Of a stretch of 64,000 nt of DNA, positions 336 through 63,299 are shown in pieces; positions within the stretch are counted from its first letter, which is position 1; each line of letters starts with the position of its first letter. Location of the stretch: positions 9,300,001 through 9,364,000 of the forward strand of contig NC_043010.1 of assembly GCF_006345805.1 (NCBI RefSeq). Reading direction: 5' to 3'. Made by a program: the position numbers and the translations under genes. Below the pieces are notes generated by a model that saw only the letters and a list, made by a program, of their open reading frames with translations, was not told the origin of the DNA and ran no database searches. This DNA is from Octopus sinensis (Eukaryota).

Positions 336-565
336 CTTTATTTTAAGCAGCAGAAAATTCAACAAAATCTGTTACTCTGAGTTTCTCGTTGCCGTTCATC
401 AGACAGTTTTTGCTAGCAAAAACTGTCTGATGAACGGCAACGAGAAACTCAGAGTAACAGATTTTGTTGAATTTTCTGCTGCTTAAAATAAAGCATATTA
501 CTCTACCACTGGTATTTGAGTACTCTTTTTTTCCACCTTGTTTCACATTTATGTGTTTACTCCGG
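336..565 (+). mobile_element. Fold-back Penelope-like (PLE) terminal fragment in a (TA)n tract; perfect 158-bp palindrome 336-493 plus 3' tail
   Basis: 336-414 is the exact reverse complement of 415-493 (centre GCTAGC); carries a hammerhead on each strand and AATAAA at ~487; flanked by (TA)n; same family at 55607-55874. Confidence 0.8.
423..460 (+). ncRNA. Minimal type-I hammerhead ribozyme motif (mirror copy on - strand at 369-406)
   Basis: ctgt-CTGATGA-a-cg(gcaa)cg-a-GAAA-ctcagag-TA-acag: stem I ctgt/acag, canonical core, very short stem II with GNRA loop, stem III ctc/gag, GUA site. Confidence 0.8.
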
Positions 566-585
566 TATATATATATATATATATA

Positions 586-795
586 GTTAATCCAAACAAG
601 AAAACACAAGAAAACACAACAACGCGAGGACGTGGAACAAATATAGTATTATTGGACGCTCAGGAAAGAAGGAAAGAAGGAGGGTTTAACGTTTCGAGCG
701 GAGCTCTTCGTCGGAAACATAGGAGAAGGAAAGATCCCGAGAAGGAAAGACAGAGGAAAAAAATCGCCAATGGTACACACGAGGTCACATTTTGA
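586..795 (-). mobile_element. PLE-like terminal fragment (family 2) in (TA)n
   Basis: Near-identical copy at 28685-28843; contains a hammerhead at 684-718; starts at a (TA)n tract. Confidence 0.7.
684..718 (-). ncRNA. Minimal hammerhead motif, CCGACGA core variant
   Basis: Minus strand gttt-CCGACGA-a-gagc(tcc)gctc-GAAA-cg-TT-aaac; stem III reduced to the AACGTT palindrome. Confidence 0.65.
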
Positions 796-1324
796 CTTAT
801 ATGTGTTGTGTGTGCATTATATATTTATATACATATAGCTTTAACAATATTATACTTTTATAGTGAATTAGACTGATAGGGTTGTTAGAACATTGGACAC
901 AATATCTTGTGGTCTTTCTTTCTGAATCCCTACCTTCTGAGTTCAAGTCCTGCTAAAGTTGGCTTTTCCTCTCATTCTTTTTGAGTCCATAAAATAAAGT
1001 ACCAGTTAAGTATGGATGTTAATTTCACCAACCAACCCTATGCTTCTCATTCATATTTAGGCCTTGTGTTTATATCAGAAACAATAATGAAATAATGCCT
1101 ATTGACACCTCAGCATGGCTGTTCCATAAGAACCGATGTTACTATCATTTTAACCCCAGGAGGACGCCTGCCCAGCTTGTAATAAAATGGTACTAAATTT
1201 GGTTCTTACAGAAGAGCCAGGTTGAAGTGATGATAAACATTACTTCTCAGCATAGTTATTGCTTTCATTTCTTATAGCAATTTTCTAACAAGATAATTTG
1301 TTTAATTACAAAATATTAAAAAAA

Positions 1325-1722
1325 TCTTTATATATAAAATTGAAGTTGTGTGTCTGTCTCCTACGATTTAGATTCCTAACTACTCCTACATTTTCCGGTG
1401 CAGTTTAACCAAAACCGGGTATCTTATAGTCGTGATTCATATCGAGCCCTTCTGGGTATTAGCATGCGTCTACAATGAGTCTACGATTTAAAAAAAAATT
1501 TACCATAATTTTTTTCCATTTCAATGCATTTTTTCGCTATTATATAAGGGAAGTAACTCTCTAAAAATGTCTACGATGAGTCAACGATTTAAAAAAAAAT
1601 TTACCATCATTTTTTTTCCCTTTTTAATGCATTTTTTTTGCTATTTTTTGGCTATAACTCTCTAAAAATGCTTATATAGTTATTTCCCTTACAAACCCGA
1701 GCAACCCGGGCAATACTGCTAG
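1325..1722 (+). mobile_element. Non-autonomous Helitron
   Basis: 5' A|TC start, 3' CTAG|T end, GC hairpin cccg..cggg at 1696-1710 just upstream of the 3' end, internal ~100-bp duplication. Confidence 0.75.
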
Positions 1723-2355
1723 TCTTATATAAAGCTTTTCATGGTATGATTGAACCAAGTTTTTTTTCTTTCAGCTGTAAGGAATTCCTTGAACTTCTGA
1801 ACAAGAAATTTTGACCAGAACTTGTGTGATTCAGTCCTGAGCTGATAATCTTGCAATGTGGTATATTGCCAGATTAGATGCTCACAGTTCTCAGTCGACT
1901 CAATAAAATGTCCTAAGTAATATTTAGCACTTATGAGCATGCCGCAACGTTTTTCACCTATGATTCCTTATTAAGGAGAAACATAAAGCCAAATATCTAA
2001 TGCACTCATTTTAGAGACATACAATAAGAGAAGAAGAAGCATCTTATAATTGCTATTAAAACTCAGATAAGTGAAAATAAAAACCTCTGTTGGAATACTA
2101 TGATCATGCCTAGGGTTTTAACTTGTTAATACAAGTGAAATTATATGTCAACAAGTTGCATAGTGCTAGGATTTTTGTCATAAATATATCTGAATCAGCT
2201 GTTTTATCAGGCCCAACATGTGGTTATGTGTATGAGTTTCTGTATATGTACATACATTTGTGTATGTGTATATATATATATATATACGTGCATTTATATA
2301 TACATGCATATATATGTATATGTATGTGCATATATTATGTACATATATGTATTTA

Positions 2356-2397
<42 letters not shown>

Positions 2398-2502
2398 TAT
2401 ATACATATATGTACATACCTACATATATGTATATATGCATATATATATATATATGCATATATACATATATGTACATACCTACATATATATGTATATATGC
2501 AT

Positions 2503-2616
2503 GCATATATGGGTACAGGACGTAAAAAAACGTGAACAAAATCATTGTTTTTGCTTTTTTATGTGCTTGTTTTTCATTTTGTTCACGTCTTTTTAACATC
2601 CTGTACCCATATATGC
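2503..2616. repeat. Short imperfect inverted repeat (~40-bp arms) inside TA/CA microsatellite
   Basis: gcatatatgggtacaggacg..aacaaaat (2503-2542) vs attttgttcacgt..cctgtacccatatatgc (2576-2616). Confidence 0.8.
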
Positions 2617-3202
2617 CTGTGTATATACATACATACATACATATATATATATATATAAGGATATAGAGATTCATAGGTGAACGTAGATAGCAATATAAAC
2701 TGACAGATGCCTAGATATAGATAGTGTTATAAATATAGATGAATAAGTACATAGACAGATCTAACTCAAGATAAGTGATGGTAGACAGATATAACTTTTG
2801 ATATATATTTACTTGCTTAGATATACCCTGATGGATGCTTAGATATGAAAAAGTAGAGTTTATATCAATAAATATATATATATACATACATATACTGGAG
2901 CTTATATATATATACTTGTATATATATATATAAATATATATGTATATATATATGTGTGTGTGTATGTATTTATAATATATATATGTGTGTATGTGTGTAT
3001 GTATATATGTGTCTGTGTATGGATGTATGTATTTGTGTACATATGTGTATATGTTTATTATGCATACGGTTATATGCATTTTGTCCCAGAGCCAGTCAAA
3101 GTTTCCTGAATACCTTTTACTTTTGATATTTGATATTTTAGCAAATTTTAAAACAGGTTTATACCACATAAATTGTAAGCATGCCCTCGTTTAAATATAT
3201 AT

Positions 3203-3240
<38 letters not shown>

Positions 3241-60910: not shown

Positions 60911-61350
60911 ATTGTGTGTGTATGTGTGCCTGTGCTATCAAATTTTACCTCTTTCCATTGCAACAATTGCTGAACATTTTTGTCCTATTAAATGTTTTTC
61001 GTTGGTGCTTCAACCAAAACAGCTTCCTTCAGACTGTATCATGTTACAAGCAAACATGTTTTGTTTACTTCCTGTAGATCAGTTGGGGTTCAACTCTCTG
61101 CTGCTGCAGTTTTCCAAATCAAATTGGGTTCTCATTGTGATATTTGATAAGATATCAATGTTCACTTAATTAATAAACTGAAATTGTATGAAAACCTTAT
61201 ATCATCAACTGAGATGTGAGTGTAGTGCTCTGTTTCTATAAGATGTAGAATGATTCACGATTTGACAGTTCAACATTTACATCCTAAAGGAGTATTACTT
61301 TAATTACATACACAGATGCACATAAATATATACACTCATCTACATATATA

Positions 61351-61770
61351 GGTGCAGGAGTGGCTGTGTGGTAAGTAGCTTGCTAACCAACCACATGGTT
61401 CCGGGTTCAGTCCCACTGCGTGGCATCTTGGGCAAGTGTCTTCCGCTATAGCCCCAGGCCGACCAATGCCTTGTGAGTGGATTTGGTAGACGGAAACTGA
61501 AAGAAGCCTGTTGTATATATGTATATATATATATGTATATATGTATGTGTGTGTGTGTGTGTTTGTGTGTCTGTGTTTGTCCCCCTAGCATTGCTTGACA
61601 AGCGATGCTGGTGTGTTTACGTCCCCGTCATTTACCAGTTCAGCAAAAGAGACTAATAGAATAAGTAGTGGGCTTACAAAGAATAAGTCCCGGGGTCGAT
61701 TTGGTCGACTAAAAGGCGGTGCTACAGCATGGCCGCAGTCAAATGACTGAAACAAGTAAAAGAGTAAGAG
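61351..61770 (+). mobile_element. SINE family A, full length
   Basis: High similarity to the 15434 copy. Confidence 0.9.
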
Positions 61771-62065
61771 TATATGTGTATAAATATGTATATGTGTGTA
61801 TATTCATAGTTATATGTATATATATATATATATATTATATATATAAATGTGCGATTTTTTCCGTTTATAGCTGTGTGTGTATGTATGAATTTGTTACTTT
61901 AACTCCTGCAAGACTATCCAACTGACCTTGATGTGACTTGTCATGTGTGTGGGGATTATGACCATGCAGTCACTTACACATTTGAAATTTTTAAAAATTC
62001 GATAATTTTTTAATCAGCATCGATTTTTCAGAAATCCTGAGCAACAATGGGTATCTCTGCAGTGT

Positions 62066-62098
<33 letters not shown>

Positions 62099-62129
62099 CA
62101 TACATATATATATACATATATATTATATT

Positions 62130-62362
62130 AAATTAGAGATAAAACCACTATTAGGCAAATCAAACAATGAAAAACTTAAGCCAATACATAAAATTAATTA
62201 ATTTATATTATTTTAAATATATATCAAAAGTATTAAAAGTTTAATAAAAGATAATGAGTAAAACACTACGATCGTTTCATGGCTGTCCAATTCGTAATAA
62301 TTCGAGTTATGGTTACAGTCAATCTTCAGGTAATTGAAATATTTATCTTAGCGAGGTTTAGC
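62130..62362 (-). mobile_element. PLE-like fragment in (TA)n with hammerhead
   Basis: (TA)n on both sides; terminal sequence shared with the 34742 palindrome. Confidence 0.65.
62262..62334 (-). ncRNA. Hammerhead motif with long stem II
   Basis: Minus strand tac-CTGAAGA-ttgactgt...acagccat-GAAA-cgatcg-TA-gtg. Confidence 0.7.
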
Positions 62363-62582
62363 ATATATATCTTTATATATATATATACAAACATATATAT
62401 ATATACACACACATCATATATATATGTGTATATATATGTGTGTGTGTGTCTATATGTATATATGTATATACATATATGTTTATGTTTGTGTACGTGTGTG
62501 ATTGTGTTTACATACATACCAATATATAAATATATATGTAAGCACACATGCAGACATACACACATATACATACACAAGCACA

Positions 62583-62639
<57 letters not shown>

Positions 62640-62838
62640 AGAGAGAGAGAGAAAGAGAGAGAGCAGATCCTATCAGTAACACTTTTATAAGTGGCATTTT
62701 GACAGATTAAACTGGCAGAATCTATTTGGAGTAATCAGTAGTGTGATTGCACTTTTCTTTTTATTATGTATTATCTAACTTTAGCATTATTTACCTTTTT
62801 GCTTCCTTAATCCTTTTATAGCTATCAGTCTTAATATT

Positions 62839-63299
62839 AAAGTTTATTTGCCAACATAATGTGGCAGTCCTATACAAGGACGATGTTACTGTTATGTAGC
62901 CCCTTTTTCCTGTTGGCTACCAGCACACAGTTTGCGGCTGTATAGTATACACAAGGGAGGTCATTGCATTCCATCTCTAGCCTTATGTGATACACATAGA
63001 CCTAGGTTTCTGAGAGCCAGTAATTTTCTCACACTGAGGATGGGTAACTACCCAGAAACCTAGGTCTGTGAGTATCATGTAAGGCTAGGGATGGAAGTGA
63101 TGACCTTCTTTGCATATACTATACGGGCACAAACTGTGTGCCGGTAGCCAACTGGGAAAGATATTTTTCTGGGACTAAGTAACAGTAACATCGTCTCTGT
63201 ATAGCACTGCCACATTATGTTGGAAAATAAACTTTACTATTCGGTACTGTTACCGTATATCTCTCGCTCAAAGATTTAAAACAATTTGTTTTTCTCTTT
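62839..63299 (+). mobile_element. Fold-back hammerhead element with 12-bp target-site duplication
   Basis: 62839-63012 is a diverged inverse of 63053-63235; direct repeat agtcttaatatt at 62827-62838 and 63300-63311. Confidence 0.8.
63028..63072 (+). ncRNA. Canonical-core minimal type-I hammerhead ribozyme
   Basis: ctcaca-CTGAGGA-tgggt(aact)accca-GAAA-cctagg-TC-tgtgag: 6-bp stem I, 5-bp stem II, palindromic stem III, GUC site after 63066. Confidence 0.88.

What the first reader, a model, noticed from the sequence alone, without database searches (positions are those of the whole stretch)
423..63072. Stem III sequence varies between families but stays self-complementary (dimer-type ribozymes)
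Seen between GAAA and the UH site: CTC(A/G)GAG, CG, CCGG, CACGTG, CATATG/CATGTG, TTGCAA, CAGCTG, CATG, CGATCG and CCTAGG. Such a stem has little or no loop and cannot close well in a monomer. Established: minimal hammerheads of PLEs and newt satellite 2 cleave as dimers through palindromic stem III. Inference: about nine independent palindromes amount to covariation evidence for selected function, and the differing palindromes could act as family-specific pairing codes.
Basis: partly seen in the sequence, partly recalled or inferred. Interest (0 to 1): 0.75.

Follow-up and report, generated by a model that had tools for sequence, protein, structure and literature searches.

The report
Dimer-type hammerheads of Penelope retrotransposons
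This stretch of animal DNA holds 23 mostly broken copies of a small hammerhead RNA motif, likely left by Penelope-type jumping genes, whose third arm is a different self-complementary word in each family and is predicted to let two copies pair and cut each other; the design is already published, and the words show no sign of being a selected family code.

Summary
Observation real, idea already in print. All ten listed palindromes map to type I hammerhead families. The window holds 23 copies in 12 families: 14 with a core, 8 truncated, 1 with stem III deleted. Corrections: TTGCAA looks like CpG-decayed TCGCGA; CATATG and CATGTG are one family; CACGTG survives only at an inversion junction; one family (CCGATTGG) was missed. 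A scan blind to stem III over 2.0 Mb gave 50 clusters, 27 perfect palindromes; shuffles gave 1 perfect in 49 hits. The innermost pair, which a hairpin cannot close, is Watson-Crick in 34 of 42, and one clade switches palindrome on a tree built without stem III. This supports selection for two-copy pairing. Three window families lie downstream of Penelope-like endonuclease frames. Cervera and De la Pena 2014 and Perreault 2011 already used this palindrome argument. The pairing-code idea is not supported: families share palindromes at least as often as chance, and stem I separates them better. Inserted copies decay neutrally, some amplified subfamilies carry core or stem lesions, and no cleavage was shown. 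This scan noted the same thing on other DNA.

The parts
331..498 (.). Family F1: perfect tail-out inverted pair (84-nt arms); hammerheads at 366-409 (-) and 420-463 (+), core CTGATGA, stem III CTCAGAG, weak stem II; extra tail (499-about 567) on one arm only
681..721 (-). Family F2 minimal hammerhead, stem III CG, core CCGACGA (U4 to C)
24280..24325 (-). CCGG family, U3-A8 core TTGAAAA; family has a GIY-YIG frame upstream in 8 of 39 copies
26045..26109 (+). Family D hammerhead, core CTGAAGA, long stem II, stem III CTCGGAG; truncated inverted partner just upstream (GAAA position 26034, minus strand)
28777..28817 (-). Second F2 copy, stem III decayed to TG
36233..36377 (.). Tail-out inverted pair joined at the stem III palindrome CACGTG (36302-36307); neither arm keeps GAAA or core
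36874..36962 (-). CATGTG family hammerhead with 56-nt stem II; family lies about 350 nt behind a Hydra-type GIY-YIG frame
37033..37079 (+). TTGCAA copy (family best read as TCGCGA), lying between the two CATGTG-family arms; stem II broken
37286..37318 (+). Truncated CATGTG-family arm (CATATG), no core
37908..37960 (+). Family D copy with GAAA and stem III deleted
52473..52550 (-).
52650..52690 (+). CAGCTG copy, 5'-truncated, no core; two partial relatives found, so hammerhead status is inferred
52940..53004 (+). Family D subfamily copy, core CCGAAGA, stem III CTCAGAG
55700..55845 (.). Two truncated F1 arms (GAAA at 55728- and 55825+), tail-out, no core
57215..59039 (.). Tail-out inverted 3' ends of a Neptune-like Penelope element; hammerheads at 57281-57328 (-) and 58926-58973 (+), U3-A8 core TTGATAA, stem III CATG, stem I reduced to 1 bp
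62260..62336 (-). CGATCG hammerhead in a very young, about 250-bp insertion (62119-62365) in (TA)n
63027..63073 (+). Best-preserved copy: core CTGAGGA, 5-bp stem II, CCTAGG, 6-bp stem I; truncated inverted partner (GAAA at 63010-)

Best explanation
These are mostly decayed 3' ends, likely of many Penelope-like retroelement families, each carrying a type I hammerhead motif with a palindromic stem III that is predicted to form only when two copies of the same family pair into a double hammerhead. Shown: the motifs, their palindromes, two-sided changes including the innermost pair, the link to GIY-YIG frames for three of twelve window families, and the neutral decay of inserted copies. Inferred: selection acted on source elements during retrotransposition. 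A transcript with both terminal repeats, or two like transcripts, would swap stems I and III and cut after UH, probably helped by the element's protein, which makes cutting depend on a second copy. Family specificity would follow as a by-product of drift in stems I and III, not as a selected code. The window's own copies are truncated or inverted and unlikely to act.
For: Stem III-blind scan: 27 of 50 clusters perfect, 6 with G-U, 6 with one mismatch; six shuffles gave 49 hits with 1 perfect and 1 with G-U. Evenly spaced 1.2 Mb alone: 12 perfect, 5 G-U, 4 one mismatch, 5 none of 26; two of the five were mis-delimited. Innermost pair Watson-Crick in 34 of 42, second pair in 30 of 39, against 0.25 expected. 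In 15 distinct 6-nt rows the innermost pair is paired in 15 of 15 with five pair types; 0 of 500 shuffles reach the covariation score. Tree with stem III masked: TCGCGA-type (30 copies, support 1.0), CTCGAG (5 of 6, 0.98), CCTAGG (21 of 34, 0.99), nested CCATGG/CCGTGG (4, 0.995). Monomer hairpins of 4-7 nt words cost +2 to +6 kcal/mol. Full-length element with the CATG motif in both direct repeats, 4.7 kb apart, around RT plus GIY-YIG. Published precedent.
Against: No cleavage measured. 5' ends do not pile up at the predicted cut (1 of 150). The double form beats two closed monomers in 12 of 14 window copies but beats the best unconstrained folds in only 5 of 14. Amplified subfamilies carry lesions: U4 to C in 7 of 14 F1 and 5 of 49 D copies, broken stem II in 18 of 29 TCGCGA copies, 1-bp stem I in 14 of 23 CATG copies. 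Neighbouring copies are mostly inverted, not tandem (21 of 24 in D, 8 of 9 in CCTAGG). Nine window families have no protein link in about 2 Mb. Words of 10 nt elsewhere can close as monomers (-1.8 to 0 kcal/mol). In Anolis, cleavage needed protein and was dispensable for insertion in vitro (PMC11167929).
Confidence: 0.85

Rival explanations
1. The different palindromes are a selected family-specific pairing code that keeps families from cross-cutting or parasitising each other.
For: Homoduplexes average -7.65 kcal/mol, heteroduplexes -1.24. Sister lineages differ in palindrome.
Against: 6-nt words collide in 3 of 36 pairs as called (0.56 expected if uniform, 2.25 if the first base is C) and in 12 of 120 after correcting likely decay (1.9 and 7.5 expected). 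31 of 40 start with C. 189 of 780 cross pairs come within 1 kcal/mol of the weaker homoduplex. Stem I cross-pairs both ways in only 21 of 780. Shared words may partly reflect shared descent.
Confidence: 0.05
2. The palindrome is kept mainly as an RNA-RNA dimer link that brings two templates to the two nicked DNA strands, giving the tail-out inverted insertions; cutting is secondary.
For: Tail-out pairs dominate. The palindrome persists in subfamilies with damaged cores or stems. One window inversion is centred on the palindrome. The Anolis protein nicks and extends both strands, is predicted to be a dimer and does not need cleavage in vitro.
Against: Core and stems I and II are conserved across families, with compensated U3-A8 and G3-C8 variants. 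A short word survives recent relaxation by inertia. Arms of pairs agree at subfamily sites more often than random copies in three of four families, which fits one template as well. Junctions at the palindrome are few (5 of 150 ends).
Confidence: 0.08
3. The palindromes are ordinary monomer hairpins, chance, or picked by eye.
For: The window-only excess is modest. One copy-level palindrome (TTGCAA) looks like a product of double CpG decay.
Against: The scan ignored stem III content, the shuffle controls are near zero, and the innermost pair cannot close in a hairpin yet covaries.
Confidence: 0.02

Closest known systems
Minimal and small-palindrome type I hammerheads in pLTRs of metazoan Penelope-like elements (Cervera and De la Pena 2014, PMC4209133; read: parts 1-3 of 4 of the text, parts 1-2 of 3 of the supplement)
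   Same: Type I order, CUGANGA core, U3-A8 variant, palindromic 15.2-16.2 and loop 3 named as evidence against chance, many families per genome, mostly solitary truncated copies, opposite-strand pairs, position at element ends.
   Different: Their 56 examples are mostly 2-nt words, up to 8 nt, from a descriptor aimed at minimal forms. Here 6-nt words are commonest (15 of 50 clusters as called), some reach 10 nt, and stem II arms reach about 65 nt. The sampling differs, so this is not a tested contrast.
Repeat-type hammerheads of Aedes and Nematostella (Perreault et al. 2011, PMC3088659; read: passages and the legend of Fig. S8)
   Same: The legend describes the palindromic stem III and loop III of several ribozymes as allowing a dimeric fold, with a 10-bp joint stem.
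   Different: Other hosts; no family-code claim in the passages seen.
Lunse, Weinberg and Breaker 2016, PMC5785218 (not held; title seen in reference lists and citing passages)
   Same: By its title, small hammerhead variants associated with Penelope-like elements cleave as dimers.
   Different: Text not seen; it may already contain palindrome mutants or heterodimer tests.
Hydra-clade and Neptune-clade PLEs (Craig et al. 2021, PMC8557442; read: passages, section 11, one supplement search)
   Same: C-terminal GIY-YIG; CxCX5C linker before the CATGTG family's nuclease (Hydra) and a CX4CxxC linker in the CATG family's protein (Neptune-like); (TA)n targets, inverted 5'-truncated copies, one-sided tails.
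   Different: Clades were assigned by motif only; no RT tree was built.
Non-LTR retrozymes and amphibian satellite hammerheads (PMC7229834, passages; bioRxiv 10.64898/2026.07.22.740005, parts 1-2 of 5)
   Same: Type I hammerheads; in axolotl a palindromic tetraloop and better cleavage as dimers.
   Different: Retrozymes form direct tandems of a few hundred bp. Copies here are mostly solitary or inverted, with few direct pairs.

Membership tests
Type I hammerhead ribozyme | Core C3-U4-G5-A6-N7-G8-A9 (or compensated 3-8 pair), GAAA, UH | tested here: met
   All core letters intact in 10 of 23 window copies; one lesion in 4; absent or deleted in 9
Type I hammerhead ribozyme | Stems I and II, with compensatory change | tested here: met
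   Stem I differs two-sidedly between subclades; weak in F1, TTGCAA and CATG window copies
Type I hammerhead ribozyme | Match to an Rfam hammerhead model | tested here: not met
   0 matches at gathering threshold; none among the 150 rows shown of 320 at E up to 1
Type I hammerhead ribozyme | Self-cleavage after H17 | not testable with these tools
   Only contigs were available; no pile-up of 5' ends at the cut
Dimer-type (double) hammerhead | Palindromic stem III too short for a stable monomer hairpin | tested here: met
Dimer-type (double) hammerhead | A second same-sense copy in one transcript | tested here: inconclusive
   Present in a full-length CATG element (L329) and a 933-bp CATGTG tandem (L248-L250); absent within 5 kb in the window
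Dimer-type (double) hammerhead | Dimer cleaves better than monomer | not testable with these tools
   Energy estimates only
Penelope-like element | RT followed by GIY-YIG upstream of the motif, same strand | tested here: met
   CATG family; nuclease frame only for CCGG (8 of 39) and CATGTG (20 of 33, overlapping loci included)
Penelope-like element | Same protein link for the other nine window families | tested here: inconclusive
   None found in about 2 Mb; they may be truncated or non-autonomous
Penelope-like element | 5' truncation, inverted partner copy, one-sided tail, microsatellite target | tested here: met
Penelope-like element | RT groups with a PLE clade in a phylogeny | not tested
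   Motif-based assignment only

The most novel reading that the evidence does not exclude
The stem III palindrome together with stem I is a self-recognition address that dimerises two RNAs of one Penelope family, as a retroviral dimer-initiation site does, feeds both to the element's protein for two-ended insertion, and is kept even after the catalytic core is damaged. Some forty coexisting families in one genome would then be a natural panel of largely orthogonal RNA pairs.
Probability: 0.1. Interest if true: 0.6.

Novelty: new member of a known kind. Interest (0 to 1): 0.22.

Why it matters
The principle is known. This genome adds a large natural panel, about 40 families in 2 Mb and roughly 60,000 near-intact motifs by extrapolation, with words of 2 to 10 nt and one clade where the palindrome can be followed changing on a tree. 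That makes it good material for asking what the ribozyme does for Penelope elements, which is still open, and whether cross-family pairs are excluded by stem I or stem III. It does not reveal a new system.

Tried and rejected
Rfam: no hammerhead hit. Genome searches with F1 and F2 returned nothing, not even the window's own copies, and the tool says it skips very common words; evenly spaced stretches were used instead. MAFFT of ten window families was uninformative because stem II lengths differ. No RNA holder on record was listed; contigs of three runs guessed to be RNA run through the CATG motif, and contigs cannot show ends or expression. No footprint of cleavage in 5' ends, 1 of 150. Two-template test on inverted arms did not discriminate; several disagreements sit at the tail boundary. 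GAAA-palindrome-UH sites at 7991, 13525, 48157 and 48310 belong to other repeats whose consensus is not a hammerhead; 14393, 18988 and 42694 are single-copy and were set aside. E-box or protein-site reading (many words are CANNTG, recalled motif): rejected because CGATCG, CCTAGG, CTCGAG and TCGCGA are not, and the C...G ends fit the GUH triplet (33 of 40). No held-out genomic sample was obtained, so the scan was not replicated on fresh DNA. Paper searches for heterodimer tests found nothing relevant (octopus search), but the Lunse paper and subscription journals are not held.
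Full report
Setting. The window lies on contig C14 of a 2.72-Gb animal genome, 35% GC and rich in microsatellites. That it is octopus-like is recalled from its repeats and from earlier scan notes, not shown by a call. Rfam gives no match at gathering threshold.

Observation. Nine of the ten listed words follow GAAA and precede UH. Searching family representatives back against the window and reading the loci gives 23 copies in 12 families: 14 keep a core region (10 with all core letters), 8 are truncated past the core and one has stem III deleted. 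CTCRGAG is two unrelated families. CATATG and CATGTG are two arms of one family. CACGTG survives only as the centre of an inversion at 36302-36307. TTGCAA belongs to a family whose copies read TTGCAA 8, TCGCAA 5, TTGCGA 5, TCGTGA 2, TCACAA 2 among 33 (the query favoured the window's form), the pattern expected from CpG decay of TCGCGA. A family with CCGATTGG at 52473-52550 was missed. In the window alone the palindrome excess is modest (3 of 100 shuffles reach it at each of three lengths).

Unbiased test. I fetched 120 evenly spaced 10-kb stretches and scanned them, the window and the search loci (334 sequences, 1.99 Mb) with a descriptor that needs core, stem II, GAAA, UH and stem I but ignores what lies between GAAA and UH. 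It gave 194 hits in 50 clusters: 27 perfect palindromes, 6 with G-U, 6 with one mismatch, 11 none. Six local dinucleotide shuffles gave 49 hits, 1 perfect and 1 with G-U. The evenly spaced 1.2 Mb alone, free of query bias, gave 31 hits in 26 clusters: 12, 5, 4 and 5; two of the five were cut at the wrong UH and are palindromic on re-reading. Shuffling letters within each word gives 9.3 perfect on average, at most 16 in 10,000, against 27. Subtracting about 5 chance hits and scaling gives roughly 60,000 near-intact motifs genome-wide (my extrapolation).

Dimer versus hairpin. Any hairpin stem is self-complementary, so the telling positions are those a hairpin cannot close. The innermost pair is Watson-Crick in 34 of 42 even-length words, the second in 30 of 39, against 0.25 expected (no rows dropped for looking false). 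Among 15 distinct 6-nt rows the innermost pair is paired in all 15 with five pair types; 0 of 500 shuffles reach the covariation score, though relatedness inflates that control. In one alignable clade (73 copies) a tree built with stem III masked separates TCGCGA-type, CTCGAG, CCTAGG and nested CCATGG/CCGTGG groups, with scattered CCCGGG-type copies; contigs of an independent run show the two central bases of CCTAGG changed to C and G at 12.5% and 10.5% of depth. Monomer hairpins of 4-7 nt words cost +2 to +6 kcal/mol, while 10-nt words elsewhere can just close. The double hammerhead beats two closed monomers in 12 of 14 window copies but the best free folds in only 5 of 14.

Carrier elements. 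A GIY-YIG search showed the window's CATG motif 0.7-1.5 kb behind the nuclease on the same strand; locus L329 has it in both direct repeats, 4.7 kb apart, and relatives encode 781-aa RT plus GIY-YIG proteins (RVT_1 just under its cut-off). The CCGG family has a nuclease frame upstream in 8 of 39 copies, the CATGTG family a frame with the Hydra-type CxCX5C linker in 20 of 33, overlapping loci included. Over all clusters same-strand upstream hits number 59, against 11 downstream and 7 opposite, of 475 copies, many from loci chosen for the nuclease. The other nine window families show 5' truncation, tail-out inverted partners, one-sided tails or (TA)n targets but no protein link in the DNA I held.

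Where selection acts. Copies differ from their family majority by 2.2% in core, 2.8% in flanks (p 0.15) and 4.9% in non-CpG stem III (raised by subfamilies); CpG sites by 20.1% in stem III and 19.4% in flanks (p 0.85). So inserted copies are not being conserved. Some amplified subfamilies carry lesions: U4 to C in 7 of 14 F1 and 5 of 49 D copies, a broken stem II in 18 of 29 TCGCGA copies, a 1-bp stem I in 14 of 23 CATG copies. 5' ends do not gather at the predicted cut (1 of 150). Neighbours are mostly inverted, and the window has no same-strand, same-family pair within 5 kb.

Pairing code. On the 40 of 50 clusters with palindromic or near-palindromic words, 6-nt words collide in 3 of 36 pairs as called and 12 of 120 after correcting likely decay, at or above chance; 31 of 40 start with C. 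A double hammerhead also swaps stem I (PMC4209133, Fig. 1A legend and text; the strand logic is my inference), and stem I cross-pairs both ways in 21 of 780 family pairs and 3 of 15 pairs that share a word. Families would mostly not cross-react, but nothing shows that stem III was selected for that.

Prior work. Cervera and De la Pena list the palindromic nature of 15.2-16.2 and loop 3 among their arguments against chance, give a consensus with a palindrome there, describe the U3-A8 core, and found no monomer and low dimer activity. Perreault et al. show the palindromic stem III of several ribozymes in a supplementary figure whose legend I read. Lunse et al. is known to me by title and citing passages only. 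Frangione et al. found protein-assisted cleavage that was dispensable for insertion in vitro (passages). Four searches found no heterodimer or octopus study, with the library's limits. Earlier notes of this scan reached the same reading on other DNA.

Verdict. A real, well-supported instance of a published design. Dimer-type function in source elements is likely, activity of these copies is unlikely, and a selected code is unsupported. Interest 0.22.

Noticed in passing
window 36233-36377: Inverted pair whose junction is centred on the stem III palindrome, as if the palindrome gave the microhomology for the inversion; such ends are 5 of 150 overall.
   Followed up: partly
L056, L081, L150, L184, L187: Family with a swapped G3-C8 core (GTGAACA) and stem III ATAT, five copies.
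   Followed up: partly
L334:673-4373, L335, L332: The CATG-family element has an upstream frame (479 aa in L334 and L335) overlapping the RT-nuclease frame, with no convincing Pfam match; a frameshifted two-frame layout is possible.
   Followed up: partly
window 62119-62365: Very young family: 40 scored genome hits are 100% identical over 101 nt, 1321 candidates; copies about 250 bp with similar 5' ends in (TA)n.
   Followed up: partly
window 62980-63140 and L002-L030: The CCTAGG clade has a long rod-like extension of stem I with a compensatory change in the CCATGG subfamily.
   Followed up: partly
cluster level: U3-A8 cores go with 4-nt words (6 of 10, no 6-nt word), C3-G8 cores with 6-nt words (16 of 30), which points to shared descent among families.
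   Followed up: no
window 681-721, 28777-28817, 52940-53004: The same U4 to C change has spread in subfamilies of three unrelated families.
   Followed up: partly
window 48140-48200 and 54460-54540 (minus strand): An abundant repeat with GAAA and CTGAG-like segments in a non-standard order; it may be the permuted hammerhead repeat of earlier scan notes. Not examined.
   Followed up: no
window 5710-6055 and 41031-41335: Tandem arrays with 111-bp (3.1 copies, 98%) and 46-bp (6.7 copies, 96%) units.
   Followed up: no
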